Shown here: piece by piece, positions 8,785 through 31,892 of the stretch | Numbering within the stretch: the stretch's first letter is position 1 | How the letters are laid out: every line of letters starts with the position of its first letter | Origin: Patescibacteria group bacterium | Lineage (GTDB): Bacteria > Patescibacteriota > Patescibacteriia > 2-01-FULL-39-33 | Reading direction: 5' to 3' | Assembly: GCA_041662745.1 (NCBI GenBank) | Contig: JBAZRV010000008.1 | Coordinates: 954 to 32,953, forward strand | DNA length: 32,000 nucleotides | Notes under the pieces: model-generated | Databases searched by the model: none | What the model saw: only the letters and a program-made list of their open reading frames with translations | What the model was told of the DNA's origin: nothing | Program-made: the position numbers and the translations under genes

Positions 8785-8789
8785 AATCC

Positions 8790-9251: not shown

Positions 9252-9266
9252 ATAACTGAATTTTAA

Positions 9267-12611: not shown

Positions 12612-12633
12612 AAAAAAAAGGGGCGATCCCTTT
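12612..12633 (-). terminator. Candidate intrinsic terminator after the dCache histidine kinase
   Basis: The minus-strand RNA is AAAGGG-AUCGC-CCCUUU followed by a total run of 8 U. It begins about 25 nt after the stop at 12657. The stem is short (3 GC plus 3 AU). Confidence 0.45.
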
Positions 12634-12656
12634 GTTGCAGATCTTTCATTAATCGA

Positions 12657-15032
12657 TTAAGCCGGACTTAATTCCTTAGTGCCCACTTTTTTCTTCATGC
12701 CTTTAAGGGGTAAAGAAATATAAAAAGTTGAACCCTTATTTTCTTTGGATGTAAACCATACTTTGCCGCCCGCTTTTTCCACTATAGACTTGACCATATA
12801 CAACCCCAAACCGGTGCCATCGGTTTCTTTATTCCTGACATTATCCGCCCGAAAAAGCTTGGTGAAAATTTTGACTTTAGCGTTCTCCGGTATGCCATAG
12901 CCATTATCAGCAATACTAATCAAGATATTTTCTCCTTGCTTGGATAAAATAACGCTCACCTTGCCCTTGGCCGGCGTATATTTGATTGCATTAGTCAGTA
13001 AATTTTGGATCAAAATCCTAACTAAATTGGGATCGGCCTTGACTAAGGGCAGATCTTTGCTGTAATGTTCTGCCAGTTTAATTTTCTTTTTGACGATTTG
13101 AGGCTTCAGCTCTCCAATAATGCTGCGGGAAATCTTTTTGAAATCAATCAGTTTCGGTTCAATAGCAAAAGTTCCAAGATCAATCCGTGAAACATTGAGG
13201 AAGGCGTTAACCAACGCCACCATTCGCTTATTACTGTTGCGCACCTCGGTTAAGTAACTCTTCTGATCCTTATTAAGCTTGCCGGCAGCGCCTTTCAATA
13301 AGATTTCCGTGTACCAATTGACTGCCGCTAAGGGTGTACGCAACTGATGTGATGCCAAAGAAACGAACTCAGTCTTCGCCTGATCTATTTGTTTTTCCTT
13401 AGTAATATCAATCTGAACGGCGGAAGCGCCTATAATCCGCCCTTGAGAATCTTTGACTGGTGAAACAGACAATGAAATATCCACTAAACTTCCATCTTTC
13501 CTCTTCCTGACGGTCTGAAAATGCTCAATTTCTTTGCCTTCAGAGATTTTCTTCAAAAAATCATCAATTTCTTGATAGCGATCGGGGGGCGCCGTTATCC
13601 TGATGTTTTTTCCAATCGCTTCTTTAGCCGTATAGCCATACAGATTTTCCGCTCCCTTATTCCAACTAGTGATCGTACCAGCCAGGGTTTTACCGATAAT
13701 CGGCTGTTCAGCGCCACGAACAATCGCCGCTAAATCTTCAGCTCTGTTCTTTTCTTCTTCTACGTCTTCTAAAATATTCAAAATCGCTTTCTGCTGTTTG
13801 GCCATGACTTCGGCGCGGCGGGAAATTTCTTTGGTTTGTTGTTTGACTTTTTTTTCTGTTTCTTGCTTGCTATTATTGACGGCTGATAACATTTGATTGA
13901 AAGCCTCGGTCATCGTCTGTAATTCATCGTAATGTTTCAATGGCTGCAAATAAGCCCCCCAATCGCCCCGGCTGATCTTCAGCGCCGCCTCATTTAATTT
14001 TTTGATAGGGCGCAATAGATTGCGTATAAACAAAACAGAAATAAAAATAGCGGAACCGGCGGCCAAAACAACAAATAAAACCAACAATAAGGAGATATTC
14101 AAAGCTGGTCTGATATAGCGCGATGCATCCGCCTCAAAAATCATATAAAAATCAAATTTTCCTACTTTTATCACCCCCAAAAGCTCTCTCCGACCTTCCT
14201 GCCGATCATTAAAGTCAAATAACTTATAACCGGTAATGCCGGCTATGTCGGATTGCAAAAAATCATAAAACAACGGCTTAATAGCCTGATCTTGATAACA
14301 CAGACAGTCGCTAATATTCTTTTGCTGTTCCGCGCTTAATACCCCCAAGCTTTTCAACTTCCTATCCTGGACCGAGGAGGCGATGATTACGCCGTTATCA
14401 TCAACAATCATTAATTTATAACTGGCATCAAAATTAAACCAATTCAGATCATTGACGACAGCATCGGAATTTATTTTTATAACCACCGCACCCAATATCT
14501 GACCTTGATTATCCTTAACCGGCACCGCATAATAAAAACCCAACTCATGCGTGGTGACACCAAAATTGGCTACCATTTTCGCTTGGCCGTCAATGGCATT
14601 ATGGAAATAATTACGGAAACGGTAATCATTGCCGAGTAAAGAAGGATCGGTGGAAACAATGGCGACGCCATTCTTATCCAACAGATAAATAATGGAATAT
14701 TCACCGCCGATATTGGCATCATTCAATCTTTCTACGACAGCCGGATCTTGGATGGCCGGCTGTTCACTGCTAAGAACATTAATTATCGCCGTGCTTTTGG
14801 ATAAATAGTCAGCAGCAGCAATACTGTCGTCAAACAGCTGCTCAACCTGATGGCTGGAACTTTGAAGAGTGGCTGATAGGATATTTTTATTCTCATCGTA
14901 AAAAGAATTTTCTGCCAGCCAAAAAACACTCAGAGCGGCTAAAAAGCCAAAAATAATAATTACTAAAGCGATACTAAGAGTGGCCCTGCTAATCAGACTC
15001 CGATAAGGAATTTTTTTATTTGTTATCGCCAT
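12657..15032 (-). CDS. Sensor histidine kinase: TM, dCache-like periplasmic domain, TM, HAMP, coiled coil, PAS, HisKA, HATPase_c
   Basis: Two TM helices (ALVIIIFGFLAALSVFWLA; LLLVLFVVLAAGSAIFISVLFI) flank a region of about 270 aa with Cache-like blocks (YYAVPV, GAVVIKI). The H-box is EFVSLASHQLRTPL. The G-boxes are DNGYGIP and GTGLGLYMVK. Confidence 0.9.
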   Translation of the reverse strand: MAITNKKIPYRSLISRATLSIALVIIIFGFLAALSVFWLAENSFYDENKNILSATLQSSSHQVEQLFDDSIAAADYLSKSTAIINVLSSEQPAIQDPAVVERLNDANIGGEYSIIYLLDKNGVAIVSTDPSLLGNDYRFRNYFHNAIDGQAKMVANFGVTTHELGFYYAVPVKDNQGQILGAVVIKINSDAVVNDLNWFNFDASYKLMIVDDNGVIIASSVQDRKLKSLGVLSAEQQKNISDCLCYQDQAIKPLFYDFLQSDIAGITGYKLFDFNDRQEGRRELLGVIKVGKFDFYMIFEADASRYIRPALNISLLLVLFVVLAAGSAIFISVLFIRNLLRPIKKLNEAALKISRGDWGAYLQPLKHYDELQTMTEAFNQMLSAVNNSKQETEKKVKQQTKEISRRAEVMAKQQKAILNILEDVEEEKNRAEDLAAIVRGAEQPIIGKTLAGTITSWNKGAENLYGYTAKEAIGKNIRITAPPDRYQEIDDFLKKISEGKEIEHFQTVRKRKDGSLVDISLSVSPVKDSQGRIIGASAVQIDITKEKQIDQAKTEFVSLASHQLRTPLAAVNWYTEILLKGAAGKLNKDQKSYLTEVRNSNKRMVALVNAFLNVSRIDLGTFAIEPKLIDFKKISRSIIGELKPQIVKKKIKLAEHYSKDLPLVKADPNLVRILIQNLLTNAIKYTPAKGKVSVILSKQGENILISIADNGYGIPENAKVKIFTKLFRADNVRNKETDGTGLGLYMVKSIVEKAGGKVWFTSKENKGSTFYISLPLKGMKKKVGTKELSPA

Positions 15033-15048
15033 ACCGCCTCAATGTCAT

Positions 15049-15249
15049 TTAATTAATCAGCTGACTTAACTGTCCGGCAACAGACATATGCTCTATCTCC
15101 TGATCGCGAATAAGCAGTACGGCATCACGTTCAAAAGGATCAGCTAAGCTTTCCAAGAATTCATCATAGAGATTCAAAGCTTGCTTTTCCAGGGCATACA
15201 ATTCAACAAAACTTTCAGCTAGCTCGGCTTTGCTTTTTTTTGTTTTCAT
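15049..15249 (-). CDS. 66-aa all-helical ORF, either independent or the frameshifted C-terminus of the double-PAS protein
   Basis: The ATG at 15249 lies inside the last 35 nt of the upstream ORF. The sequence is helical and acidic and contains EIEH. Confidence 0.45.
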   Translation of the reverse strand: MKTKKSKAELAESFVELYALEKQALNLYDEFLESLADPFERDAVLLIRDQEIEHMSVAGQLSQLIN

Positions 15250-16354
15250 ATTTGATTAATTCTTTAAATTTTTTCTCATGTTCCCGGCTCTCCTCAAGCA
15301 GCTGTTCAAGAAGTTTTTTTATCTTTCTGACCTCAACGGCGCTTAAATCGTAACTGCTTATCTTTGCCAAATAATCAGTAGTTAAGCTCTGCACCAGATC
15401 ATCTTCCAGTTCTACGGCCTCCTGAAATTTTTGCGACCAGCTTTTTTCTGTCGCTGCTGGTTGCTCAACCGAACCCTTCCTAAGTTGTTCTTTAAGCTTG
15501 ATTATCCGCAGTTCCCGTCCGACCATAAGCTCATTCAAACGTTCCAAGTCCCTCATTTTCTCCTTCAAACTATTCTCCGCCAGCCGCCGCTTAGTGATAT
15601 CCAATGTAAAACCGATAACGCCCACGATGTCGCCGGCGGCATCGCGATAAGGGATTTTATCGGTTTGGACCCAGAGAGTTTTATTAGGCAAAACCAAAGT
15701 TTCAATAATATTCCTCTTGGCCTTGCCCATTCTAATTACTTCCTTGTCATCATCCCAATAGGCTTGAGCCTGGTCTTTGCTGAAAAGATCAAACATGGAT
15801 TTGCCCTGAAGCTGTTTCTTAGACATCCCCATTACATCGCTGAAGGCCCGGTTAACGCGGATAAAGCGATTATTTATATCTTTATAAAATATCCAAGCCG
15901 GCACGGAATCAAGAATTACTTCTATCTCCTGCTGCTGCCTGTGCAGAGCGTCTTCTATTTTCTTGCGCTCGGTAATATCACTGATTATACCCACCAAATA
16001 AAAATTTTTATTGCCGCTCTTAAAGACGTTCTTTTTAGTTATGATATTATGCGTGACACCCCTGGCATCAGTGAATAATTCTTCATTGATATTCTCTTTG
16101 CCATTTTTAAACACCATTTCATCTTTACTCCAAAAAACCTTGGCCTCTTTATCCGAAAAAAAATCATAATCGGTTTTACCGATAAGCTTCTGCCGAGGGT
16201 ACCCCATAAAAAGACAGTAAGCATCGTTAAGCAGAATCCAACGATGCTTGCGGTCTTTGACAAAAATCGGATCAGAAACCTTATTAATGATATCCAAAAG
16301 CACTTGCTCATCTTTGATAGAAAAATCAGAAGGCTTTGAAATTGGCGTTAGCAT
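15215..16354 (-). CDS. Double-PAS domain protein with a C-terminal coiled-coil/helical region and no kinase core
   Basis: There are two PAS-like units, ending ISDITERKK and TLDITKRR. No H-box or ATPase motifs are present. Confidence 0.85.
   Translation of the reverse strand: MLTPISKPSDFSIKDEQVLLDIINKVSDPIFVKDRKHRWILLNDAYCLFMGYPRQKLIGKTDYDFFSDKEAKVFWSKDEMVFKNGKENINEELFTDARGVTHNIITKKNVFKSGNKNFYLVGIISDITERKKIEDALHRQQQEIEVILDSVPAWIFYKDINNRFIRVNRAFSDVMGMSKKQLQGKSMFDLFSKDQAQAYWDDDKEVIRMGKAKRNIIETLVLPNKTLWVQTDKIPYRDAAGDIVGVIGFTLDITKRRLAENSLKEKMRDLERLNELMVGRELRIIKLKEQLRKGSVEQPAATEKSWSQKFQEAVELEDDLVQSLTTDYLAKISSYDLSAVEVRKIKKLLEQLLEESREHEKKFKELIKYENKKKQSRAS
15234..15241 (-). other. A8 coding-strand homopolymer at the junction of the double-PAS ORF and the 66-aa ORF
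   Basis: T8 on the plus strand. Deleting one base reads ...YENKK-SKAELAESF... straight through. Confidence 0.6.
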
Positions 16355-16364
16355 AAGGAGGGGG

Positions 16365-16736
16365 TTACTTAATGCCCAATTTTTGCTGGACTTTAACGGC
16401 TACATCGGCGACATTCCAATCCACCTTGACCAAGTATTCAAAAGTTCCCAAGGCCACGGCTTGAGCGACCTTAGCTGAGTCGCTTAAATTACTCAAAATT
16501 ACCACTTCGGCTTTCTTGCCCCACCGATCCTTACGTAACTTGGCTAACATTTCCAAACCGTCCATCTTGGGCATTACCAAATCTAATAGAATTAAATCAG
16601 GTTTCTCTTTCTTGGCTAACCGTAAGCCCTCAACACCGTCTTTGGCAAGTAATACCTTAACCTGCCCGGCGTCAAATTGCGATGACAACGCCTTAAGCAC
16701 GATTGGTTCATCATCAATGATTAACAATTTTTTCAT
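16365..16736 (-). CDS. Stand-alone response regulator receiver (CheY-like, no output domain)
   Basis: 123 aa with the IIDDE acidic pocket, phospho-acceptor LLDLVMPKMDG, ILSNL and YLVK. Confidence 0.9.
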   Translation of the reverse strand: MKKLLIIDDEPIVLKALSSQFDAGQVKVLLAKDGVEGLRLAKKEKPDLILLDLVMPKMDGLEMLAKLRKDRWGKKAEVVILSNLSDSAKVAQAVALGTFEYLVKVDWNVADVAVKVQQKLGIK

Positions 16737-16770
16737 ATTGTATTTTAAATTTATAACCGTTTAACAATGA

Positions 16771-19746
16771 TTATTTAACGGGCAGGGTAAAATAGAAAGT
16801 TGTGCCCTTATTCTCTTTGGAATCAAACCAAATCCTGCCGCCATGCGCTTCAACTATGCCTCGGGCGATATACAGCCCCAAACCTGTGCCTTCCGGCGCC
16901 ACCCCCCTGATGTTATCCGCCCTGAAAAATCTCTCAAAAATACGATGTTGCTGATACTGCGGTATGCCATAACCCTGATCGGTAACGGCTATGGACCAAT
17001 AGTCCCCTTGGCGCTGGCAATCAAAAGTTATTTTAGCTTTATCGGGAGAATACTTAATGGCATTGCTAATCAAATTATTCAGCATTTGGACGATTTTATC
17101 AAAATCAAAAACACAAATAATTTTCCCGTTTAAACCGCAACCAAAAATCATGCTGATTTTCTTTTTATTGGCGGTTAACGTCTGATCTTCTATGGCGCGG
17201 CTAAGGGCTAAACGCAAATCGGCTGGTTTTTTGTTTAAGGTGAATTTTCTTCCCGTCTCAAGATGGGAAACGTCTAACAAATCATTAACCAACTTAATCA
17301 TTCGTTCATTGCTATGATAAATCTGCTCAACAAAATCACGTTGCTCCTGATTCAACTTGCCAATCTTCTCCTTTAACAGCAATTCGCCAAACCATTTAAT
17401 GCCGGTTAAAGGCGTCCGCAACTGATGTGAAGACATGGACACGAATTCTGATTTTAAACGATCAATTTCCTTGGCCTTGCTGATATCGCGCAAAATAGCC
17501 ATGTCGGCCGGTTGACCATTTAAAACAACAACTGAACTATTGGTTTCTACCGGTATGGCTTTGCCGTGCTTATCAATAACGGCGAATTCATAACGAGTAT
17601 CCACCCTCTCCCCCTGCATGCGACGCTTGTAATTGGAAGCGACCAGGCTCTTATATTGCGGAGCGATAAAATCAACCATGGGTTTGCCGATGACGTCTTG
17701 AGGAACCATGCCGGTAATCTTCTCTATGGCCGGATTGGCATATTTAACTATACCCCCCTGAATCAGTATAACGGCATCATTACTGCGTTCCACCAGGATA
17801 CTGTATCTTTCCTCCGATTGCTTGATTTCCCGTTCCCAGATCTTATGCTGAGTAATATCTTCAACAACTGTCAAAAAATATAGCGGCTTATCACTATTGT
17901 TTTTAATTAAAGTAGCGTTAACTCGGCCATAAACAATTTTTTTGTCTTTCCTGATATAACGTTTGTCCACGCTATAAACAGAAATCTTACCTTTAAGCAA
18001 CAATTTGACTTTTTCTATATCCCTTTTGACTTCATCGGGATGCGTAATATCGGCAAAGGTCAGCTTCTCAAGTTGGTCCTCGGAGTAACCCCAAAATTTA
18101 ACAGCAGCCGGATTAGCACTAATGAATTTATTATCCAAGCCGACCAAGACAATGGGTATCGGGCTGTTTTCATAAATCGCTCGCAGGCGATCTTCGCTGT
18201 TAACCAGCTTTGTTTCTGTTTGGTGACGCGCAGTAATATCGCGGATGTTGCACTGAACGACTTTGGTGCGGCCAATATTATAGACATTACTGACAAATTC
18301 CACGCTGATCGGCTTGCCGGACTTGGTTCTTAAAGGCAAATTATCATAATGGACATACTTCTTTTTCTTTAAAATTTCAAAAGATTTCTTGGAAGCCATT
18401 ATGTCCTTAAATAACCCGATTTCCCACAATTTCTTCTGTAAAAATTCGTCTCTTCCATAGCCCAGCATCTCAATTAAATACGGATTAACCTCTTCAATTT
18501 CTCCGGTCTCAACATTAAGAATCAAAATGCCGTCCTTGGCCGCTTCAAACAACCGACGATATTTCTGCTCTGACTTAACTAAACTTTTTTGGATTTTTGT
18601 ATCCTTAGTGACATCAGTGAAGCGCCAAACCCGGCCTACGATCTTACCGTCAATTTTTTGCGGTAAAGACAAACGATCAAAAACCCGGCCATCCTTAAAA
18701 TAAACAGTATCGGAACTTTTATTTGCCGGATGTTTATAAAGGTAGTTTACTTTGGTTAAAAATTCTTTGGCATCGGTAAGCTGGCTCACGACATAAGACA
18801 ACAGCTTCTTGTCATTCTTCGTCTTCGCTAATTTCTGGGGTATTTTCCATAACTCCAAAAATTTTTCATTATAAAATGACACTCTGCCCCGGCGATCAAT
18901 CACCAGGATGCCATCCGATGAAGTATTTGTGATTGAATCCAACAGGGAAACATAATTTTTTACGGTTATTTCATTTTTTTTAGTTTCGGTAATATCGCGG
19001 GAAAAACCCATGACATTGCTTATTCGGCCTGACTGATCCCTGACCGGCGTTAATTGCGTACTCAGCCAAACATCACCATGGGCAAAATGAGAAAGATCTT
19101 CCCGATAAGAGTGTTGACCGCTACGGAATACCTTATTAAGGTTAGCTTTTTGCCGTTTGGCCACGGCGGGCGGAAACAAATCCTTAACGCTTTTACCGAC
19201 AATGTGAATCGGCTGGGCATTAAACTGTTTGGCTCCGAATTCATTAACATAAGTTATCCGACCGCCCCTATCAACCAAGTAAATACTGTCATGAGCCATC
19301 TCAGCTAAGGTTTTATAAAGCACTTCGCTTTCTTTTTTTTCGGTAATATCGCGAAAAAAAGCGATTAAGCAATCGCGAGAATTAATCTTTATTCTGCCAA
19401 AGCCGGCAGAGACGAATTTAATTTTTCCCTTCTTGGTTATTATCTGCAAGTCCGCGCTTTTATCAAAACCCTTGCCTTTAGCCAATTGCGTAAAAACTTT
19501 TAGCGTTTTTTTAATGCTGTTTGCCGGATGCAAATGCCTGATGGACAACTTAAGCAATTCTTTTTTGGCATAACCGAATAAACGGCAGGCGGCCGGATTA
19601 GCATCAATGATCTTGGTTGACAAGTCAGCAATCACAATGGCATCAGCCGTGTTATTAAACAACATCCGATAATTATATTCGCCACCGGCCATCAGTTCGT
19701 CCGGGGTGGGGCAGGATTGTTTTTGATTAAAAATCAGCCAATTCAT
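16771..19746 (-). CDS. Cytoplasmic multi-PAS (about six PAS units) sensor histidine kinase
   Basis: Six repeats end in the characteristic DIT motifs: FRDITEKK, SRDITETK, FTDVTKD, IRDITARH, VEDITQHK and LRDISKAK. The H-box is EFVSMSSHQLRTPL. The ATPase motifs are DQGYGIP and GTGLGLYIAR. No TM helix is present. The track start at 19773 is TTG, and I prefer the ATG at 19746 (MNWLIF). Confidence 0.9.
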   Translation of the reverse strand: MNWLIFNQKQSCPTPDELMAGGEYNYRMLFNNTADAIVIADLSTKIIDANPAACRLFGYAKKELLKLSIRHLHPANSIKKTLKVFTQLAKGKGFDKSADLQIITKKGKIKFVSAGFGRIKINSRDCLIAFFRDITEKKESEVLYKTLAEMAHDSIYLVDRGGRITYVNEFGAKQFNAQPIHIVGKSVKDLFPPAVAKRQKANLNKVFRSGQHSYREDLSHFAHGDVWLSTQLTPVRDQSGRISNVMGFSRDITETKKNEITVKNYVSLLDSITNTSSDGILVIDRRGRVSFYNEKFLELWKIPQKLAKTKNDKKLLSYVVSQLTDAKEFLTKVNYLYKHPANKSSDTVYFKDGRVFDRLSLPQKIDGKIVGRVWRFTDVTKDTKIQKSLVKSEQKYRRLFEAAKDGILILNVETGEIEEVNPYLIEMLGYGRDEFLQKKLWEIGLFKDIMASKKSFEILKKKKYVHYDNLPLRTKSGKPISVEFVSNVYNIGRTKVVQCNIRDITARHQTETKLVNSEDRLRAIYENSPIPIVLVGLDNKFISANPAAVKFWGYSEDQLEKLTFADITHPDEVKRDIEKVKLLLKGKISVYSVDKRYIRKDKKIVYGRVNATLIKNNSDKPLYFLTVVEDITQHKIWEREIKQSEERYSILVERSNDAVILIQGGIVKYANPAIEKITGMVPQDVIGKPMVDFIAPQYKSLVASNYKRRMQGERVDTRYEFAVIDKHGKAIPVETNSSVVVLNGQPADMAILRDISKAKEIDRLKSEFVSMSSHQLRTPLTGIKWFGELLLKEKIGKLNQEQRDFVEQIYHSNERMIKLVNDLLDVSHLETGRKFTLNKKPADLRLALSRAIEDQTLTANKKKISMIFGCGLNGKIICVFDFDKIVQMLNNLISNAIKYSPDKAKITFDCQRQGDYWSIAVTDQGYGIPQYQQHRIFERFFRADNIRGVAPEGTGLGLYIARGIVEAHGGRIWFDSKENKGTTFYFTLPVK

Positions 19747-19769
19747 TATAATATCTAAATATTTATATT

Positions 19770-27600: not shown

Positions 27601-27966
27601 GGAAACGGTGGAAGAAACATAATCAACGGTGAAAACGGAGGAAGTGGCATAAATGCCATTGCCGATGCCGTCATTAGGCCGTAAACGAACATAAGTGGTG
27701 GTAACGACGTCGCCCAATTGCGAACGGGCGTCCCAAACGAAAGTGTGGGGCGTACCGCCGGAAGAAGCGGGCAAGCCGGAAACTCCGCTATGGGCCGGAT
27801 CGGTGGTGGAGGCGGTCATAGTCACCGCGTCGGCAAAGGTGCCGGATAAGGAATACTCATAAGCCGTCAAACTGGATATATCGTCTTCCGCGTCTTGCAA
27901 ATTATAATTGACATGGACATAACCATAAGTTGTGTCTTGCGCCGGCGCCACAGATTGCACCTGGGG
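21234..27966 (-). repeat. Intragenic coding repeat array of ~110-aa modules nested in a ~2-kb super-repeat
   Basis: There are ten Asp-box modules following the pattern DTxAPv...Y.L.D.....isxDGGxTW.V.....G..G..v..G.GK.i.W.ag.D...Q....m.vR.r..D..gN. There are four copies of an SxDxxxW variant module (YEYS.D...W.AMTEK.G.GS.G). There are three copies of a YKYVKPYTPSAPT / FN3-like block. Approximate super-repeat boundaries are 26617-27966, 24590-26616, 22569-24587 and 21234-22568. The copies are clearly diverged at the DNA level. Confidence 0.85.
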
Positions 27967-29316
27967 TCGCTGATTTTGCGTGTAAGTAATGGTGATATTA
28001 TCCAAAATCACCTGCTGAGTGCCATCGCTCGACAAGTAAGCGCGCCATTTTATTTGATTGGTAGAAGTGGTGAATTTAGAAATATTGGCGTTAACATCGG
28101 TTGCTGTATTATAATCAGTCGTTAAGGTGGTGGTCGCCCAAGCTGAGCCGTTGTAATATTGCCAATTAGACCCGTCATCAGCTGACAATTGATAATAAAT
28201 TTCTCCGCCGTTTTTAGTCGCTGTTTCCACGAAAGAATTCCAACTTACCGTCTTGAGCATCGTCAATGAGGCGACTGGAGTAGTTGTTGGCTTATCGGAA
28301 GCATAAGCATGAGTGGTTTTCGACCAATCCAACTGGATATTGTCAAAACCAACCGTATAAGGACCAATATTAGAACCGCCGGTTTCCAGCCAAACAGCTA
28401 ACTTAAGATAATAAGTGCCAATAGCCGTTACCTTGGAAGAAACATCCAAATTGCTGACCGAAGTCCAACCTTGGGTAGCGGTTATTTCTCCCGACGACCA
28501 GACCTCTTGGCCGATAGTCGGCGCGCCGGTGCCAGTATCAATAAAAGCGTAAACCTTAAAGGTTATGGGCGGATTGGGAGTAGAATCATAAGCTGTAACA
28601 TGATAATCAAAACTTACAGTTGCTGTCGGATCGGTAACAGTGGTGGTAAAGCCCTGCCGCCAATAACCGCCTAATTCATCATCTTTGCCGGACGGCGCGC
28701 TGATATTTACCCAGCCGCCGGGATTGCCGCCAGTCGTAATCCTAGCTCCGGTAATATTAACCTCGCCCCCTCCCTGGCCCCAATCGGCATAAGTCCAACC
28801 GGTGGTATCGCTGTCAAAACCGGGGTTGGTGATGTTGCCACTATCGGTCGTACCATTATCTTTTAATTGAGCTACCCCGCCGGTTACCTCAATTTTGGCA
28901 GGGTCATAAGTGTAATCGCCGGCGTTGTCAAAAGTCCAATCCTGCGTGTCGGCCAAAATCTGAATTGCGCCCAAAAAAATAAAAGATAAGATGCCGACGA
29001 CCAAAATTTTCAAAACAAACAGGCCTCCCGCGCCGCCTGCAGTGGCCAAACTGATGCGCCGCCTGACGGTGTAAACCCGCAGAGGCTTAACGGCTTTCTG
29101 CCGGCTGGGAAAAATCATTCCTTGCTCTTGCAATCGGTCCGGCGGAACCAACAGGTACATGGGCAAGGAGACAACGGCAAACACGACTTCTATCGCCAAT
29201 AATTCTACGGCTAAAGGCAGGACTCTGTACCATTGTCCGGTTTTAACGACTTTTTGACGCAAACCGAAAACATAGCCGGAATAAGAAAAAAATAGATTTA
29301 GCCAGCGCTTAGACAT
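24715..29316 (-). CDS. Giant surface protein, N-terminal portion
   Basis: The contents are an N-terminal membrane module, a CBM-like head and Asp-box repeat modules. The ATG at 29316 (MSKRWLNL) is preferred over the track TTG at 29376, because it starts 2 nt after the upstream stop and aligns with MKNKWLNL of the neighbouring paralog. There are two hydrophobic segments, an NPGFDSDTTGW jelly-roll-like region and four Asp-box modules. The ORF ends in out-of-frame residues (FSVGILFRRSRQS) right after a T7 run. Confidence 0.85.
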   Translation of the reverse strand: MSKRWLNLFFSYSGYVFGLRQKVVKTGQWYRVLPLAVELLAIEVVFAVVSLPMYLLVPPDRLQEQGMIFPSRQKAVKPLRVYTVRRRISLATAGGAGGLFVLKILVVGILSFIFLGAIQILADTQDWTFDNAGDYTYDPAKIEVTGGVAQLKDNGTTDSGNITNPGFDSDTTGWTYADWGQGGGEVNITGARITTGGNPGGWVNISAPSGKDDELGGYWRQGFTTTVTDPTATVSFDYHVTAYDSTPNPPITFKVYAFIDTGTGAPTIGQEVWSSGEITATQGWTSVSNLDVSSKVTAIGTYYLKLAVWLETGGSNIGPYTVGFDNIQLDWSKTTHAYASDKPTTTPVASLTMLKTVSWNSFVETATKNGGEIYYQLSADDGSNWQYYNGSAWATTTLTTDYNTATDVNANISKFTTSTNQIKWRAYLSSDGTQQVILDNITITYTQNQRPQVQSVAPAQDTTYGYVHVNYNLQDAEDDISSLTAYEYSLSGTFADAVTMTASTTDPAHSGVSGLPASSGGTPHTFVWDARSQLGDVVTTTYVRLRPNDGIGNGIYATSSVFTVDYVSSTVSNVLATQPLGTTTVAVTYDLFDDTADNILVEMQISGDDGDTWTVPATGVSGAVGAGVTAGNGKTIYWTAGADYPNQQKSNMRVRIRAKDKWQNQGVYSASANFSLDTLPAATLTAADLQAQPNAGDTAVLIGGSFTEVNPDANHFYVAIDGGGYSSSTAGDSDTATPSNLATAVGATLDGNDYISQVKIVHTDDYFNLGVNENLTPNSIYKYVKPYTPSAPTLSNPVTTRLDLTINSHAGEAGDVQYALFETTTSKYVQSDGTLGVSPVWQIIGTGSGQWGNNTGSAGTVRITGLSSPVANYIFKVKSRNPSDAGHAASSDSAFSATAQITNTAPGIVLDSYAQTTDGSQYSPIAYTGTDGQGDVTYLSAYEYSVDGSSWQAMTEKSGAGSNGTANLIFLPTGSAYSFVWDSGADLPSLETTTAKIRLRGNDTLTDGSLVASANFSLDNKAPVVSDVTASQNAGARTVAITYNLTDANSSLIQIDISGDGGSTWTVATSSLTGAVGSGVTPGVGKSVAWNAGADYDNQYNTNVLVRVRARDSFGNQGSYSGSAIFTVDTHAPVLSNLSAGQDGNANTFTFHYDVSEDAGNANLLLAVSADGGSTWTVATSSATGDLGVAVIPGSGKTITWDAGADYNDQEKTNMQFRLTATDSFSNNSALASSDFSLDTKSPRLTNVSATQPLGGTSVTITYDLADQNNSLVILDISNNSGSTWLVATSTLSGEIGANITPGTGKTVTWNAAVDFPDQNLSTMQARVRALDIFANQSANVPSADFSLDTLPPAVSVIANLSAQPLAGATTTLIGGSFTEANPNTNDFYVAIDGGSYGSATAGSVNTASPADQATVVGVTLDGNDYISQVKITHTDDYGQTITNENGSPNSAYKYVKPYTPSAPTVNNPGVGTVDVLINKNPAETDGLEYAIYEGSQNKYVQSDGTLGASPVWQVSGTGFFSVGILFRRSRQS
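24753..24759 (-). other. 7-nt homopolymer (T7 on the coding strand) causing the frameshift that splits the giant gene
   Basis: With T6 the reading is ...WQVSGTGFFQWGFYSGVAGKVNISGLILDSYHYQFQVKSRNSSDGAHAASSDSALSSSASSVNQSPTIAID. This reproduces the motif series GTGxGQWG / ANYxFKxKSRNPSD / SSxSxFS seen in the two other copies. Confidence 0.85.
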
Positions 29317-29318
29317 AG

Positions 29319-30140
29319 CTAAAGAGTTAATATGGTTAAGAAAATTCCTAATAAGATGATAATAATCACCGACCAATTGGCCAAGGAATCAATATTCTTG
29401 GCGATTAAATCAAACCAAGTGGAAGTTACTTTGAAATATTGGGTCGGCGCAGTCTCGCTCCTGGTCCCCTGCTGTTGATTGTAACTAAAAACCAGCACCG
29501 AATGATTGCCCTCGCTTAAACGAAAATTGCTTTGCAGTTGTTCTATCCGCCAGTTGCCGGCTGAATCCGCATCGGCCGTATAAACCGCCGTCTGCTGATC
29601 CGACAACAATAAAACAACCGTAGCCAGCGGTTGTCCAACGCCTGAGAAGACGTAATTGCCTCCCCTGATTTTTTTGACTTGTCGCAATTCCGGCCTCGCC
29701 ATAGTGTTTACTACGCGAGCCGTCTGGATTCCCGTATCAGCGGCCACCAATTCCTGTTGCGTAATGTCGGCCGGCTGTAAATCGCCTACCGAATAAAGTT
29801 GCAAGGGACCGAAAACGGTCGGTGTCAAAACAATAATCAATAATTTTGCCAGCCAAACCAAAGCGATAACGCCAACGCCGGTAACTGTTAGGATGCGGCG
29901 TAAATTATAATCAAAATTCACTTGGGCATAAGACCCTTGGTCGGCGAAATAAGCCGTAACGTCGCGAGACTTCAAGGTCAGATATAACGGAAGAGAGGTC
30001 ACGGCTAAAAATATCTCCCAGAAAAAAAGTAGGAAAATATTATAAACTGCCTCCAACCCAGTTTGCCCTACGATAAGTTGTTTGCGATTATAGATGCGGT
30101 TGGTTAAAAGCAATACGAGATTTAACCATTTATTCTTCAT
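29319..30140 (-). CDS. 273-aa membrane protein, a miniature paralog of the giant protein
   Basis: It consists of the N-terminal membrane module, one Ig-like domain and the C-terminal TM anchor. MKNKWLNL, AVTSLPLYL and LRRILTVTGVGVIALVWL align with MSKRWLNL, AVVSLPMYL and VRRRISLATAGGAGGLFVL of the giant. FSGVGQP...SDQ...ADSAGNWRIEQ...EGNHSV...YFKVTS...ANWSVIIIILLGIF aligns with the giant C-terminus FSGVSLP...SDQ...ADSQGNWRIDH...PGQHTV...TFTVKR...LNWQTTVITLIVLV. Confidence 0.8.
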   Translation of the reverse strand: MKNKWLNLVLLLTNRIYNRKQLIVGQTGLEAVYNIFLLFFWEIFLAVTSLPLYLTLKSRDVTAYFADQGSYAQVNFDYNLRRILTVTGVGVIALVWLAKLLIIVLTPTVFGPLQLYSVGDLQPADITQQELVAADTGIQTARVVNTMARPELRQVKKIRGGNYVFSGVGQPLATVVLLLSDQQTAVYTADADSAGNWRIEQLQSNFRLSEGNHSVLVFSYNQQQGTRSETAPTQYFKVTSTWFDLIAKNIDSLANWSVIIIILLGIFLTILTL

Positions 30141-30152
30141 CTATTGTAGTAT

Positions 30153-30536
30153 TTAAGTGCTTAAAATTTTCTCAACCTTGTCTTTTAAGACGGATAAGTC
30201 CGTATCAGCCTTAATAAAATAATCCCTGGCGCCCAAATCCTTGGCTTTCTTAATATCTTCTTCATCGCCCAAATTAGACAAAACGATTACCGGCGTGGCT
30301 CGTAAATTAGTATTGGCCTTAATATTCTTAAGAAACTCAAAACCGTTCATTTTCGGCAATAACAGATCAAGCAAAACAACATTCGGCTTGGTTCTTTCCG
30401 CCATGTGCAGGGCGGTTTCACCGTCAGTGGCGGTAGCGATAGTAAAGCCGCCTTCATGAAAAACCAGATACAGCGCTCTTAATAGAATTTCATCGTCTTC
30501 AACTATCAAAACTATTTTTGTTCCTTCTTTCGCCAT
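30153..30536 (-). CDS. Stand-alone response regulator receiver
   Basis: 127 aa with LIVEDDE, VLLDLLLPKMNG, VLSNL and YFIKAD. There is no output domain. Confidence 0.9.
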   Translation of the reverse strand: MAKEGTKIVLIVEDDEILLRALYLVFHEGGFTIATATDGETALHMAERTKPNVVLLDLLLPKMNGFEFLKNIKANTNLRATPVIVLSNLGDEEDIKKAKDLGARDYFIKADTDLSVLKDKVEKILST

Positions 30537-30539
30537 ATT

Positions 30540-30959
30540 TTAATCTTTTAACGACTTTTTAATATAATCGATGATTTTTTTCATCTCCGTATTGGCTTTA
30601 ATGAAATATTCTTCGGCGCCCAAGGCCTTAACCGATTTAACATCGCCAATCTCGTCAAGATTTGACAGGACGACAACGGGGATATTTTTTACTTTGTCAT
30701 CGGCCTTCAACTCCTTAAGCACCGTAAAACCGTCAATGCCGGGAATAACCAAATCCAACAAAATCAGCTGAGGTAAGAATTTTTTGACCATGGCGACGGC
30801 ATCATTGCCGTTATCCACCACCATGACCTCAAAGCCTTCGTTTTTTAAGCTTTCTGCCAACACTTTGGATAACAAAGAATCATCCTCCACAACCAGGACT
30901 TTTCGGGGTTGTTTTTTGGATTGACCTTTCTCTCCAAGGCCAAAAATGGTTTTTAGCAT
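30540..30959 (-). CDS. Stand-alone response regulator receiver
   Basis: 139 aa with LVVEDDS, ILLDLVIPGIDG, VLSNL and YFIKAN. There is no output domain. A 3-nt gap separates it from the next receiver gene. Confidence 0.9.
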   Translation of the reverse strand: MLKTIFGLGEKGQSKKQPRKVLVVEDDSLLSKVLAESLKNEGFEVMVVDNGNDAVAMVKKFLPQLILLDLVIPGIDGFTVLKELKADDKVKNIPVVVLSNLDEIGDVKSVKALGAEEYFIKANTEMKKIIDYIKKSLKD

Positions 30960-30987
30960 AATTTGATTAAGTTGCCCCCCAAATTAG

Positions 30988-31800
30988 TTAAATATAGTAT
31001 ACCACAATATTATACCATAAACAAAATAAATGCGCATCAAGCGCGCTTGATTGGCTAAACAATTTAATAAAGTTAAAAACAAGCCGCTTAATCGCGACTT
31101 GCCGGTTTTCTTTGGGCCAAAATCTGTTCCTCAGCTTAATATAGGCGTTTAACGCTCTGTCCGGCCCGTTTAAATCATCCAAAAACAATTTCCTGATCCA
31201 GGCCAAATCAATCTCGCCGCGCAAATACTTGGCATAAATCCTATCAGCCAAGCCATAACCCTGCTGATAGATAAAGAATTCCTCAAAATCAAGATCCTGG
31301 CCAAGCGTTTTAAGCAATATCCGCCGAATATCTTCTTTGGCTTTGCCGTTTAACAGTAGTAAATCGGGCAAATGTTCATACAGATTCTCCCAATCACTGC
31401 CCAATAGCCTGGCGCCTAACATTCCCAGCAATTCCACCAATACGCCCAAAGCCATATAATCCTTAACATTTCTTCTTTTATTTCCCACCTTGTAAGAAAC
31501 GCCGGAAGACAAAAAATGGAAAGCGTGCGAAGATTCCTCCAGAATAGAATGATTGGTTGACTTAGGGCCGATGATTATTATTTGTTGTTTCAACAGATAA
31601 TAACTTAGACCGCTGGCTATTCTAATTGCAAATTCTTCTTCTAAGGACCTGGGTAATGCCAGATCATTAAACTTGACAGTTTTGCCAATCCACCAAACCT
31701 CGGGGTAACAGCTTAACTCAATTGACAAAATTTCAGACAATTCCGAAAGCGCATCATAAACCAGTTCCTCAATCTGAGCCTGCCTGTCTCGCCATCTCAT
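30988..31800 (-). CDS. Hypothetical protein, first gene of the cluster
   Basis: 270-aa ORF with an ATG start. It is preceded by AGGGAGGGAGGG (31820-31809), 8 nt upstream of the start. I recognise no family. It contains the ExxHxxH-like string EESSHAFH. Confidence 0.65.
   Translation of the reverse strand: MRWRDRQAQIEELVYDALSELSEILSIELSCYPEVWWIGKTVKFNDLALPRSLEEEFAIRIASGLSYYLLKQQIIIIGPKSTNHSILEESSHAFHFLSSGVSYKVGNKRRNVKDYMALGVLVELLGMLGARLLGSDWENLYEHLPDLLLLNGKAKEDIRRILLKTLGQDLDFEEFFIYQQGYGLADRIYAKYLRGEIDLAWIRKLFLDDLNGPDRALNAYIKLRNRFWPKENRQVAIKRLVFNFIKLFSQSSALDAHLFCLWYNIVVYYI
30996..31017 (-). promoter_or_regulatory. Tandem extended -10-like elements (TGGTATAAT, 4 nt, TGGTATACT)
   Basis: On the minus strand, TGGTATAAT sits at 31017-31009 and TGGTATACT at 31004-30996. 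Both lie in the last codons of the 270-aa ORF, about 40-55 nt upstream of the first receiver ATG. Motif match only. Confidence 0.35.
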
Positions 31801-31808
31801 GCTTGTTA

Positions 31809-31820
31809 CCCTCCCTCCCT
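31809..31820 (-). promoter_or_regulatory. Shine-Dalgarno site (GGGAGGGAGGG) for the 270-aa ORF
   Basis: The purine GGAGG-type tract ends 8 nt before the ATG at 31800. It is the strongest SD I could see in the window. Confidence 0.6.
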
Positions 31821-31892
31821 TGGTAATGCTGTAAAGTGCTATTAAAAATTTAATTTTGGATGAACGTCTTGTCTATTCGAAGTTCCTAAACG

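What the first reader, a model, noticed from the sequence alone, without database searches (positions are those of the whole stretch)
12612..31820. A 19-kb single-strand cluster coupling a giant surface protein to a two-component network with no output domain: a candidate sensory-controlled attachment system
Eleven ORFs lie head to tail between the strong SD at 31809-31820 and the hairpin plus U8 at 12612-12633. In that order they are:
- the 270-aa unknown protein
- REC
- REC
- the mini paralog
- the giant protein (two ORFs)
- the six-PAS histidine kinase
- REC
- the double-PAS protein
- the 66-aa ORF
- the dCache-HAMP-PAS histidine kinase

I saw no internal terminator, and the internal gaps are mostly under 35 nt. 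The sole exception is the 97-nt gap at 24618-24714, which is actually frameshifted coding sequence.

The cluster therefore pairs one extracellular sensor (dCache) and at least nine PAS units with an adhesin-like giant. It contains no DNA-binding, GGDEF/EAL, CheA/CheW or other effector domain.

My hypothesis is that the phosphorylated single-domain receivers act directly on the machinery. Candidate targets are the shared cytoplasmic N-terminal module of the giant and mini proteins, or the 270-aa protein. I do not know of a described system with this composition. The functional link rests on gene order only.
Basis: inference. Interest (0 to 1): 0.75.

Follow-up and report, generated by a model that had tools for sequence, protein, structure and literature searches.

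The report
Conserved receiver–kinase cassette around giant surface protein
In these ultrasmall groundwater bacteria, a giant sugar-binding-like surface protein and a small look-alike membrane protein are almost always encoded next to their own phosphorylation-signalling proteins; this gene cassette has no described function and may let the cells switch surface attachment on and off without changing gene expression.

Summary
The eleven minus-strand ORFs, their domains, the frameshift, the Shine-Dalgarno sequence (SD) and the terminal hairpin are all real. The unit is not the one proposed.

**Conserved core.** Comparison with 37 species-level relatives shows six genes: REC–REC–273-aa "mini" membrane protein–giant (3181 aa once one inserted base is removed)–PAS histidine kinase–REC.
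- The REC pair precedes mini in 36/36 loci.
- The giant follows mini in 30/32 loci.
- A PAS/kinase gene is contiguous in 15/17 loci.

**Wider distribution.** Far more distant relatives keep a minimal REC–mini–giant–kinase cassette.

**Gene 1.** The 270-aa gene is a separate transcription unit. A conserved terminator hairpin and a conserved extended −10 promoter lie between it and the first REC gene. Its homologues elsewhere are unlinked to the cassette.

**Tail.** I found no counterpart of the PAS–66-aa–dCache-kinase tail at relatives' cassettes; the sister genome's downstream end was not seen.

**Proteins.** Mini and giant share a three-helix N-terminal membrane module, a last Ig domain and a C-terminal anchor. 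The giant has a CBM-like head.

**Mechanism.** That the receivers dock on the shared N-module is plausible but unproven. The reverse signal direction remains open.

No description of such a system was found in five full-text searches. I class it as a new variant of a known kind, with interest about 0.66.

The parts
31079..31103 (-). Terminator-like hairpin (10-bp stem plus U-rich tail) that ends the upstream 270-aa gene's transcription unit. It marks the 5' boundary of the cassette.
   Evidence: Top terminator-like hit. -14.9 kcal/mol, z -3.4. Conserved in L004, where one G-C pair becomes A-U.
31009..31017 (-). Extended -10 promoter element TGGTATAAT inside a non-coding block that is nearly identical in the window, L004 and L013. 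This is the probable promoter of the cassette.
   Evidence: An exact TGnTAnAAT match lies within about 165 nt upstream of the conserved receiver core in 16 relatives' loci.
30971..30980 (-). Shine-Dalgarno-like GGGGGG(CAAC) ahead of the first REC gene.
30540..30959 (-). REC139-type stand-alone receiver. It has a hydrophobic, Lys-rich N-terminal tail.
   Evidence: Pfam Response_reg 7.4e-22. Phospho-site residues conserved in 35 orthologues. Upstream of mini in 36/36 loci.
30153..30536 (-). REC127-type stand-alone receiver, always immediately upstream of mini. This is the ancestral receiver of the cassette.
   Evidence: The single REC of the distant cassettes best matches this type.
29319..30140 (-). 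Mini: a 273-aa membrane protein made of a three-helix N-module, a linker, one Ig-like domain and a C-terminal TM anchor.
   Evidence: 201 clusters at E<=1e-3, length nearly fixed. Alignment A1. AF2 model. Ig domain resembles adhesin BIg/FN3 domains.
19770..29316 (-). Giant surface protein, 3181 aa after removal of one base. Order of parts: N-module, conserved CBM-like head, Asp-box/Ig-like repeats in three super-repeats, Big_13 domains, C-terminal TM anchor with a basic tail.
24753..24760 (-). Frameshift site. An extra C (24760) lies 5' of a T7 run and splits the giant into 1533-aa and 1615-aa ORFs.
   Evidence: The same frameshift is in a second assembly, L001.
16771..19773 (-). Soluble six-PAS HisKA histidine kinase, the core kinase directly after the giant. 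The true start is probably the ATG at 19746.
   Evidence: 993-aa orthologues directly after the giant in L014 and L021.
16365..16736 (-). REC123-type stand-alone receiver, the conserved partner after the core kinase.
   Evidence: A receiver follows the kinase in 6 of the 8 loci that show at least 3.5 kb beyond the giant.
15215..16354 (-). Double-PAS protein with a C-terminal coiled coil. A lineage-specific accessory.
15049..15249 (-). 66-aa two-helix ORF with ExxH motifs and a weak resemblance to encapsulin ferritin-like proteins. A lineage-specific accessory; whether it is a real gene is uncertain.
   Evidence: No homologue in any fetched locus.
12657..15032 (-). dCache-HAMP-PAS-HisKA histidine kinase with two TM segments. 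A lineage-specific second sensor added to the 3' end of the operon.
12617..12633 (-). Weak hairpin plus U8 at the 3' end of the cluster.

Best explanation
**What it is (shown by comparison).** The window carries a lineage-expanded copy of a conserved, uncharacterised cassette. In ABY1-type Patescibacteria the cassette is REC-REC-mini-giant-kinase-REC. In distant relatives it is REC-mini-giant-kinase.

Mini and giant are paralogous membrane proteins. They share:
- a three-helix N-terminal membrane module with invariant WLN, a Glu inside the second helix, SLPxY, YxxRR and Lys;
- a last Ig domain;
- a C-terminal TM anchor.

The giant differs only in a variable ectodomain. It begins with a conserved CBM-like head and continues as Ig/Asp-box repeats, which is the design of a glycan-binding surface fibre.

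In this genome the cassette has its own promoter near 31010. It has also picked up extra sensors at its 3' end: the double-PAS protein, the 66-aa ORF and the dCache kinase. The giant gene carries a 1-nt insertion.

**How it most likely works (inferred).**
1. The kinases integrate cytoplasmic (PAS) and extracellular (dCache) cues.
2. They phosphorylate the stand-alone receivers.
3. The phosphorylated receivers dock on the cytoplasmic face of the shared N-module of mini and/or giant (helix 1 and the loop before helix 3).
4. Docking changes export, retention, oligomerisation or conformation of the fibre.

This would be transcription-independent, inside-out control of attachment.
For: **Synteny**
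- The REC pair is upstream of mini in 36/36 loci, and the giant downstream in 30/32.
- A PAS/kinase gene is contiguous in 15/17 loci.
- Housekeeping genes (LeuRS, ComEC) bound the six-gene core.
- Distant cassettes: L072 REC-mini-909-aa giant-kinase; L070 REC-mini-mini-like-CHASE4 kinase; L071 REC-mini-giant; L066 REC-FIST-kinase-mini-giant.

**REC to mini link**
- The REC127-mini junction is 12 nt here, and 14 nt or overlapping in distant loci.
- The receiver is the invariant neighbour. The position and sensor type of the kinase vary: soluble multi-PAS, 6-8 TM, 2-TM periplasmic, CHASE4 or none. That is the usual pattern of variable input and fixed output.
- No other output domain or gene occurs in the cassette.

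**Receivers look functional**
- The acidic pocket, phospho-Asp, Ser/Thr and Lys are conserved in all three orthologue groups.
- The REC139 type carries a hydrophobic, polybasic N-terminal tail, suggesting a location near the membrane (sequences).

**Shared module and surface role**
- Invariant residues shared by mini and giant cluster in the N-module.
- The mini Ig domain resembles BIg/FN3 domains of SiiE, Bap and MpIBP.
- The giant head resembles CBM61/11/4 and phage receptor-binding domains.

**Precedent**
- A single-domain receiver activates a membrane protein of a surface-polymer pathway: EpsW-EpsZ (abstract of PMC12802240, listed).
Against: - No physical or co-evolutionary evidence for a receiver/N-module contact was obtained.
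- No Rosetta-stone fusion of the N-module with REC or kinase domains was found among nine odd-length family members.
- Topology of the N-module is uncertain: pLDDT is about 60-80, and the basic residues after helix 1 fit a 3-TM model poorly.
- In L072 the kinase is a bare, soluble HisKA-HATPase core with no sensor. This is easier to explain if the membrane pair supplies the input.
- In L070 the 'giant' is only 259 aa, so the family's general role cannot be adhesion by a long fibre.
- L067 has mini-giant with no signalling genes nearby.
- Kinase plus stand-alone receivers recurs in the loci fetched with the dCache kinase, with no mini or giant nearby.
- In this genome the giant is frameshifted.
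Confidence: 0.4

Rival explanations
1. Outside-in signalling. The mini/giant membrane pair is the sensor: it detects contact or glycan binding through the CBM-like head. It controls the adjacent, often soluble kinase through its cytoplasmic parts. The stand-alone receivers are the output and act on targets encoded elsewhere, such as pilus motors, division or other kinases.
For: - L072's kinase has no sensor and no TM segment.
- The core kinase here and in several relatives is soluble.
- The giant has a conserved ligand-binding-like head.
- The ectodomain can shrink to mini size (L070) while the cassette persists.
- Multi-spanning membrane proteins that modulate histidine kinases are known: SpdC-WalK and Abx1-CovS (abstracts of PMC5854430 and PMC3578759, listed).
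Against: - Most cassette kinases carry their own sensor domains: six PAS, CHASE4, 6-8 TM or dCache.
- The kinase is the least fixed member in position and architecture. A conserved sensor-kinase interface would predict the opposite.
- The receiver, not the kinase, is welded to mini.
- No target for the receivers is then encoded in the cassette.
Confidence: 0.25
2. Co-expression without direct contact. The signalling genes and the surface genes share an operon only so that they are made together, or the receivers serve as phosphate sinks or shuttles in a genome-wide network.
For: - Kinase-plus-stand-alone-receiver clusters without mini/giant are common in the fetched loci.
- Extra kinases and receivers accumulate at the locus in some genomes: L034, L041, L043.
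- L067 lacks signalling neighbours.
Against: - Orthologue-specific receivers (E 1e-40 to 1e-55, against about 1e-20 for other receivers) keep the same position next to mini in 36/36 species, and in cassettes at E 1e-31 to 1e-43.
- This holds while the flanking genes change completely. Such persistence is hard to explain without a functional dependency.
Confidence: 0.15
3. One reading: one 19-kb, eleven-gene operon starting at the SD at 31820, with the 270-aa protein as a member and possible receiver target.
For: - All genes lie on the same strand with short gaps.
- 270-aa/REC adjacency is also seen in the two closest relatives, L004 and L013.
Against: - A conserved hairpin plus a conserved promoter lie between gene 1 and gene 2.
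- The 270-aa homologues at 43-54% identity are unlinked to any REC or giant.
- The gene is absent from 34 of the 37 species-representative loci.
- The tail genes have no counterpart at relatives' cassettes and none was returned from the sister genome.
Confidence: 0.05
4. In this particular organism the system is decaying. The giant is a fresh pseudogene, as in relatives that have lost it. This is not exclusive of the explanations above.
For: - A 1-nt insertion splits the gene, and the same frameshift is in two assemblies.
- It is an inserted C, not a change in length of the T run.
- There are natural losses elsewhere. L045 has a deletion from mini codon ~218 to kinase residue ~522. L039 has mini followed by unrelated small genes.
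Against: - Both halves are otherwise free of stops over 9.5 kb, so the lesion is very recent, an assembly error, or partly rescued.
  - Rescue could be by +1 slippage or transcriptional slippage on UUUUUUU (inference).
- The two assemblies may derive from the same reads.
Confidence: 0.35

Closest known systems
Lap system (LapA giant adhesin with LapD/LapG; c-di-GMP inside-out control) of Pseudomonas and its relatives (own knowledge; Dvh variant in the abstract of PMC13090378, listed)
   Same: A giant repetitive surface adhesin is encoded beside dedicated signalling proteins. These are thought (here) or known (Lap) to control its surface display post-translationally from the cytoplasm.
   Different: There is no GGDEF/EAL receptor, no periplasmic protease, no type I secretion genes and no RTX repeats. 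This is a monoderm-type protein with TM anchors, and the signal carrier would be phospho-receivers rather than c-di-GMP.
Single-domain response regulators that act by protein contact: EpsW-EpsZ (PMC12802240), CheY-FliM, DivK, LovK-LovR control of Caulobacter attachment (the last three from own knowledge)
   Same: Receiver-only proteins with canonical phospho-sites. EpsW targets a membrane protein of a surface-polymer pathway. LovK/LovR couples a PAS kinase and a receiver-only protein to attachment.
   Different: The target here is unknown. The receivers are encoded directly in front of the putative target in a cassette conserved across very distant lineages. They are not orthologues of any named family: all NCBIfam scores are far below the cut-offs.
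PorXY two-component system and the type IX secretion motor (own knowledge: PorX binds PorL)
   Same: A two-component regulator that contacts the cytoplasmic part of an envelope machine that exports giant adhesins.
   Different: PorX has an enzymatic output domain and works with a diderm secretion system. None of those components is present here.
Ebh-type giant surface proteins of monoderms, regulated by ArlRS-MgrA (PMC6548404, PMC4856396)
   Same: A multi-thousand-residue repetitive surface protein held by a C-terminal TM segment with a basic cytoplasmic tail, under two-component control.
   Different: Ebh is controlled transcriptionally through DNA-binding regulators encoded elsewhere and has a cleavable signal peptide. 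Here there is a conserved 115-aa three-helix N-module, a mini paralogue and adjacent receiver-only regulators.
Giant membrane proteins of CPR bacteria proposed to mediate host attachment (Vampirococcus lugosii, PMC8080830)
   Same: The same phylum-level group. Very large membrane-anchored proteins with interaction domains are inferred to mediate recognition and attachment.
   Different: No mini paralogue, shared N-module or linkage to two-component genes was reported there ('two-component', 'response regulator' and 'histidine kinase' each occur 0 times).
Accessory membrane proteins that modulate histidine kinases (SpdC-WalK, PMC5854430; Abx1-CovS, PMC3578759)
   Same: Under the rival reading, a polytopic membrane protein encoded with or near a kinase sets kinase activity.
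   Different: Those are Abi-domain proteins acting on kinases with DNA-binding partners. There is no sequence or fold relation to the N-module.

Membership tests
Two-component phosphotransfer system (HisKA-type kinase plus receiver) | Kinase with a DHp H-box (HisKA) and an HATPase_c catalytic domain. | tested here: met
   Both kinases match: HisKA 4e-19 / 6e-16 and HATPase_c 9e-29 / 2e-28. The H-box SHQLRTPL is visible.
Two-component phosphotransfer system (HisKA-type kinase plus receiver) | Receiver with acidic pocket, phospho-acceptor Asp, conserved Ser/Thr and Lys. | tested here: met
   All are conserved across 35, 38 and 6 aligned sequences (window included) of the three receiver types.
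Two-component phosphotransfer system (HisKA-type kinase plus receiver) | Actual phosphotransfer between these kinases and these receivers. | not testable with these tools
   Needs phosphotransfer profiling.
Classical transcription-factor response regulators (OmpR/NarL/NtrC types) | DNA-binding or other output domain fused to the receiver. | tested here: not met
   The receivers are 123-139 aa with only Response_reg. No DNA-binding regulator is encoded elsewhere in the window.
Single-domain response regulators acting by protein contact (CheY/DivK/EpsW kind) | Receiver-only architecture. | tested here: met
Single-domain response regulators acting by protein contact (CheY/DivK/EpsW kind) | A defined protein target bound in a phosphorylation-dependent way. 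| not testable with these tools
Chemosensory (Che) pathway | CheA, CheW and methyl-accepting receptors. | tested here: not met
   None in the cluster or the window.
Lap-type adhesin control | LapD-like GGDEF/EAL receptor, LapG-like protease, type I secretion, RTX adhesin. | tested here: not met
   No such Pfam or NCBIfam hits.
Sortase-anchored (LPXTG) surface proteins | C-terminal LPXTG motif before the hydrophobic segment. | tested here: not met
   The giant ends ...FTVKRNFWVMIYRYLNWQTTVITLIVLVAVIFWLYRVRKRQSANV, with no LPXTG.
C-terminally TM-anchored giant surface proteins of monoderms (Ebh-like design) | Repetitive Ig-like ectodomain, C-terminal TM segment and basic cytoplasmic tail. | tested here: met
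   TM at 3155-3173 followed by RVRKRQ. Big_13 and Ca_tandemer-like repeats. Ig fold matches to SiiE, Bap and MpIBP.
C-terminally TM-anchored giant surface proteins of monoderms (Ebh-like design) | Ordinary cleavable N-terminal signal peptide. | tested here: inconclusive
   Instead there is a conserved ~115-aa three-helix module. A possible signal-peptidase site (ILA|DT) follows helix 3 in giants but not in minis, by my reading. Cleavage is untested.
Mini / N-module family (defined here; not in Pfam or NCBIfam) | N-terminal WLN...E(TM)...SLPxY...YxxRR...K module, a last Ig domain and a (L/A)NW C-terminal anchor. | tested here: met
   Alignments of 36 minis and 35 giants. A profile search finds full-length minis down to E 1e-16, and 26 of the long hits (909-5686 aa) also carry the N-module at their N-terminus.
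   A hairpin and a conserved promoter lie between genes 1 and 2. Gene 1 and genes 8-10 are not co-conserved. Transcript structure itself is untested.

The most novel reading that the evidence does not exclude
The cassette REC-mini-giant-kinase is a self-contained, transcription-independent attachment switch. It is widespread in ABY1-type Patescibacteria and present in scattered distant lineages. Phosphorylated stand-alone receivers bind a previously unrecognised three-helix membrane module shared by a giant glycan-binding fibre and its mini paralogue. Binding gates export, retention or conformation of the fibre. If so, ultrasmall episymbionts with few transcription factors would have a direct sensory handle on host attachment, and the N-module would be a new class of response-regulator target.
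Probability: 0.3. Interest if true: 0.85.

Novelty: new variant of a known kind. Interest (0 to 1): 0.66.

Why it matters
How Patescibacteria (CPR) find, hold and release their hosts is a central open question. The reviews and the genetic study I checked never use the terms 'two-component', 'response regulator' or 'histidine kinase'.

This analysis turns a single-genome curiosity into a comparative result:
- a six-gene module is conserved across 37 species-level genomes labelled Buchanan-, Magasanik-, Uhr- or Falkowbacteria, or simply Patescibacteria;
- a four-gene ancestral form exists in far more distant organisms;
- two protein families (mini and the N-module giants) are absent from Pfam and NCBIfam.

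It gives concrete, testable partners: REC127/REC139 against the N-module, and the kinases against the receivers. It also gives clean boundaries for cloning.

If the receivers do act on the membrane module, this would be a new output mechanism for two-component signalling, and a route to sensory control of attachment in organisms with very few transcription factors. If the flow is reversed, the giant would be an unusually large extracellular sensor for a kinase. Either outcome is informative.

Tried and rejected
1. **Co-fold.** I built a fusion of mini(1-125) + REC139 + REC127 with an 18-row paired alignment.
2. **AlphaFold database search.** A fold search of the mini model against afdb50, to map taxonomic spread, failed because the library was not available.
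3. **dCache kinase scan.** A metagenome-contig scan with the dCache kinase, meant to recover the 3' tail in the sister genome, returned only relatives at 38% identity or less over the full length. None lay next to a mini or giant.
4. **PAS2 search.** The last homology search went on PAS2. Apart from near-identical copies of the window's own protein, the best relative is 42% identical and lies in a different cluster.
5. **Rosetta-stone fusions.** Nine odd-length family members showed no fusion of the N-module with REC or kinase domains.
6. **Known folds for the N-module.** Only the Ig domain of mini matched solved structures. The KirBac hit is noise, with rmsd 19 Å.
7. **Sequence matches for the giant.** PDB sequence searches gave one marginal Bap hit. 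NCBIfam gave only sub-threshold adhesin-repeat hits.
8. **RNA elements.** Rfam and tRNA scans of the window found nothing, so no riboswitch or leader.
9. **Horizontal transfer of the giant.** Rejected. Its higher GC comes from the second codon position (0.50 against about 0.3), and GC3 matches the neighbours.
10. **Internal promoter at the giant/kinase junction.** TTGAAA-17-TATAAT at 19773-19745 scores 11/12. Its -10 overlaps the likely kinase ATG, and relatives have only 8 nt at this junction, so I do not rely on it.
11. **Motif counts.** Counts of promoter-like and terminator-like motifs are not above shuffled expectation (41 vs 35.6; 22 vs 25.2; TGNTATAAT 3 vs 1.5). Only position and conservation carry weight.
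12. **Literature.** Five full-text searches found no description of this cassette.

Full report
**1. What is in the window**

All sizeable genes lie on the minus strand. Between 31800 and 12657 there are eleven ORFs, in this order:
- a 270-aa protein with no family match;
- two stand-alone receivers (139 and 127 aa);
- a 273-aa membrane protein ("mini");
- two long ORFs of 1533 and 1615 aa (the giant);
- a soluble kinase with six PAS-like units;
- a 123-aa receiver;
- a 379-aa double-PAS protein;
- a 66-aa ORF;
- a two-TM dCache-HAMP-PAS kinase.

No DNA-binding, GGDEF/EAL, Hpt or Che domain occurs in the cluster. Downstream come housekeeping genes: RarA, NUDIX, QueH, an HtrA-like protease, DnaE and an AAA protein. 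The SD at 31820-31809 and the hairpin plus U8 at 12633-12617 are present. The hairpin is weak, at -8.1 kcal/mol and z -2.0.

**2. The frameshift**

The two long ORFs are one gene. The window reads ACCGGCTTTTTTTCAG where the two closest relatives read ACCGG-TTTTTTTCA. Deleting the C at 24760 yields a 3181-aa ORF. That is exactly the length of the uninterrupted orthologue in the sister genome.

The same lesion is in a second assembly, although that assembly may come from the same reads. It is an inserted C, not a change in the T7 run.

The protein has no cysteine and is rich in Thr, Ala, Ser and Gly. It has ten Asp-box motifs (SxDxGxT[WY]). Its high GC comes from second codon positions only, so it is a native gene.

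**3. Source and relatives**

The exact proteins occur in a Patescibacteria MAG from an aquifer. Every contig that carries the locus breaks 100-325 nt upstream of the 270-aa gene.

Mini belongs to a tight family. There are 201 clusters at E<=1e-3, and the 120 best listed are 51-89% identical with length almost always 273. They come from genomes labelled Buchanan-, Magasanik- and Uhrbacteria or unclassified Patescibacteria; one of the fetched loci is labelled Falkowbacteria. A scan of one genome per GTDB species returned 37 loci. I annotated them with the window's proteins.

**4. The conserved core**

| Feature | Count | Source |
|---|---|---|
| REC139-type then REC127-type receiver directly before mini, where at least 900 nt upstream is visible | 36/36 loci | |
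| A giant with the same N-terminal module (1100-3440 aa) after mini | 30/32 loci | |
| Next gene after a complete giant is a PAS/kinase gene (17 loci show at least 350 nt beyond it) | 13/17 loci | |
| No kinase after the giant, but kinase plus receivers directly upstream of the REC pair | 2 more of the 17 | |
| No kinase seen on either side (L023, L030) | 2/17 loci | |
| A receiver after the kinase (8 loci show at least 3.5 kb beyond the giant) | 6/8 loci | |

The two loci without a giant are informative:
- L045 has a deletion running from mini codon ~218 to kinase residue ~522.
- L039 has unrelated small genes after mini.

In Magasanikbacteria-type loci the module is bounded by LeuRS and ComEC. 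The unit there is therefore REC-REC-mini-giant-kinase-REC.

**5. Deeper conservation**

A profile search of 1.84 billion representatives finds full-length minis down to E 1e-16. It also finds long proteins that match the profile's C-terminal third at their C-terminus. Of these, 26 (909-5686 aa) also carry the N-module at their N-terminus. Five distant loci could be read:

| Locus | Gene order |
|---|---|
| L072 | REC - mini - 909-aa giant - 249-aa kinase (bare HisKA + HATPase, no sensor, no TM) |
| L070 | REC - mini - a second mini-like 259-aa protein - CHASE4/PAS kinase |
| L071 | REC - mini - fragmented giant |
| L066 | REC - FIST - PAS kinase - mini - giant |
| L067 | mini - giant, with no signalling genes nearby |

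- L071 sits in a metabolically rich context. Another member of its 90%-identity cluster is labelled Ca. Humimicrobiaceae (Actinomycetota). That label comes from a 1.8-kb contig, so it is tentative.
- The single receiver in these loci is of the REC127 type, with E 1e-31 to 1e-43.
- The ancestral cassette is thus REC-mini-giant-kinase, and the receiver was duplicated in the ABY1-type clade.

**6.

*The 270-aa gene.*
- Homologues at 43-54% identity are 229-233 aa. The two whose context could be read (49% identical) sit between panD/rRNA-region genes and infB-rbfA, far from any REC or giant.
- Only the two nearest relatives (L004, L013) keep it next to the cassette.
- Between its conserved end and the first REC gene lies the strongest terminator-like hairpin of the region, at 31103-31079 (-14.9 kcal/mol, z -3.4).
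- This hairpin is kept in L004 (-15.1 kcal/mol, z -4.0), where a G-C pair becomes A-U; a second, terminal pair changes on one side only.
- A non-coding block follows that is nearly identical in three genomes. It carries an extended -10 (TGGTATAAT, 31017-31009) and an SD.
- An exact TGnTAnAAT match lies within about 165 nt upstream of the conserved receiver core in 16 relatives' loci.
- The last ~38 codons of the window's ORF therefore read through an intergenic region.

*The 3' tail.*
- No PAS2 relative above 42% identity was returned other than near-identical copies of the window's own protein, so none from the sister genome.
- That 42% relative lies in a separate cluster, REC-PAS-binding protein-dCache/HAMP-dCache kinase-REC-REC, flanked by housekeeping genes.
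- Full-length dCache-kinase relatives are at most 38% identical. They sit with their own stand-alone receivers and no mini or giant.
- The 66-aa ORF has no homologue in any fetched locus.
- The short gaps make it plausible that the tail is co-transcribed here, but it is a local addition.

**7. Anatomy of mini and giant**

AlphaFold models give the same N-module for both proteins (mean pLDDT 69, mean pLDDT 81):
- helix 1 at ~2-25, amphipathic and basic;
- helix 2 at ~29-56, with an invariant Glu and the SLPxY motif;
- a loop;
- a long helix 3 at ~77-115, preceded by YxxRR.

Residues invariant in both families cluster here.

Mini then has a linker, one Ig-like domain (pLDDT ~85) and a C-terminal TM helix. 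The Ig domain resembles the BIg/FN3 domains of the giant adhesins SiiE, Bap and MpIBP.

After helix 3, giants share a conserved juxtamembrane motif and a two-domain head. The head is modelled at pLDDT ~90. Its first domain matches the carbohydrate-binding modules CBM61, CBM11 and CBM4 and phage receptor-binding domains.

The giant ends in Big_13 domains, a TM segment and a basic tail. This places the ectodomain outside the cell. Whether the N-module is cleaved (giants have ILA|DT after helix 3, minis have GP) or stays as a second anchor is unknown.

**8. The signalling proteins**

All three receiver types keep the acidic pocket, the phospho-Asp, the Ser/Thr and the Lys. None reaches the cut-off of any named regulator family. 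The REC139 type has a conserved hydrophobic, Lys-rich N-terminal tail (sequences).

The kinase next to the giant varies in its sensor: soluble multi-PAS, 6-8 TM, periplasmic 2-TM, CHASE4, or none.

**9. Mechanism**

*Shown.* There is a conserved genetic unit, and the receivers look functional. Mini and giant share a membrane module. The giant has a surface-fibre design with a CBM-like head.

*Inferred.* I favour inside-out control (confidence about 0.4): the kinases phosphorylate the receivers, which then dock on the cytoplasmic face of the N-module and alter display of the fibre. The reasons are:
- the receiver, not the kinase, is the invariant and tightly abutting neighbour of mini;
- inputs vary while this neighbour is fixed;
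- no other output is encoded in the cassette;
- there is precedent in EpsW-EpsZ (abstract of PMC12802240).

The main rival (about 0.25) reverses the flow. The sensor-less kinase of L072 and the soluble core kinases would take their input from the membrane pair. Co-expression without contact (about 0.15) fits the general abundance of kinase-plus-receiver clusters, but it does not explain the orthologue-specific, position-specific conservation.

In this genome the giant may be a very recent pseudogene. L045 and L039 are precedents for loss.

**10. Comparison and novelty**

The cassette works like known cases in which signalling controls a giant adhesin (Lap, ArlRS-Ebh, LovKR) and like single-domain regulators that bind non-DNA targets. 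It fails the defining features of each named system (see the membership table). Mini and the N-module have no Pfam or NCBIfam model.

Five literature searches and three targeted look-ups found giant CPR membrane proteins proposed as attachment factors, but no link to two-component genes.

I class it as a new variant of a known kind.

Noticed in passing
window 24753-24760 (- strand): The giant's frameshift is an inserted C directly 5' of a U7 run (GGC UUU UUU UCA). A +1 ribosomal slip or loss of one U by transcriptional slippage would restore the full 3181-aa frame. The split gene might therefore still yield some full-length product.
   Followed up: partly
window 15049-15249 (- strand): The 66-aa ORF overlaps the end of the double-PAS gene by 35 nt. 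It encodes two helices with ExxH-type motifs (LEKQALNLYDEF..., IRDQEIEHM) and weakly matches encapsulin-associated ferritin-like proteins (E 5e-4, far below cut-off). It could be a small metal- or redox-sensing partner in a signalling operon, or not a gene at all. No homologue was found in any fetched locus.
   Followed up: partly
L045:10001-12117 (complete chromosome OW818634.1): A natural deletion joins mini (intact to residue ~218) to the core kinase (from residue ~523 of the window's kinase). It removes the whole giant and four PAS domains. The two receivers are kept.
   Followed up: yes
L039:8921-13038: Here REC-REC-mini is followed by a small antitoxin-like ORF and a 493-aa P-loop (KAP-like?) protein instead of a giant. 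My guess is that mobile or defence genes replaced it. The region upstream of the REC gene in L039 and L048 is an odd purine-only (AG-rich) tract.
   Followed up: partly
window 30986-31017 (- strand); also L004, L013: The conserved promoter block contains two tandem -10-like elements (TGGTATAAT ATTG TGGTATACT) followed by ATATTTAACT, identical in three genomes. This may be more than a promoter, for example an operator. A second intergenic TGCTATAAT lies at 3193-3201, ahead of the AAA-protein gene.
   Followed up: partly
window 30900-30959 (REC139 N-terminus) and orthologues: REC139-type receivers carry a 10-20-aa N-terminal tail of the form M(L/F)xxLF...KKK, hydrophobic then polybasic. The other receivers lack it. 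It looks like a membrane-association or docking peptide.
   Followed up: no
window 30988-31800 and L007-L012: The 270-aa protein belongs to a small family with no family match (eight clusters found; members 229-250 aa, 270 aa here). In Falkowbacteria-like genomes the family sits after panD, near a long stretch with no called genes, and upstream of infB-rbfA. In L009 that stretch carries a LAGLIDADG endonuclease, so it is probably an rRNA operon with an intron.
   Followed up: no
window 15215-15500 (C-terminus of the double-PAS protein); L028:14375-14941: The coiled-coil motif RLNELMVGRELRIIKLKEQL after the PAS domains recurs (LNKLMVGREIEMIELKARI) in the PAS protein that directly follows the giant in the single-cell genome L028. 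PAS-only accessory proteins may therefore be a recurrent add-on to the cassette.
   Followed up: no
L001-L003 and window 31800-32000: Every assembly that carries the locus breaks 100-325 nt upstream of the 270-aa gene. This suggests a repeat, a strain-variable region or a coverage drop just beyond the window's end.
   Followed up: no
window 8011-9623 (- strand): Three small polytopic membrane proteins without family matches (257, 153 and 118 aa) produce the strong AT skew (0.32) of the 8-9 kb interval.
   Followed up: no
L050, L051, L068, L069 and other loci: Kinases followed by one to three stand-alone receivers and no output domain recur in these loci, unlinked to mini or giant. L050/L051 carry a further stand-alone receiver upstream. 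Receiver-only regulators may be the common form of two-component output in these lineages, which would deserve a genome-wide census.
   Followed up: partly
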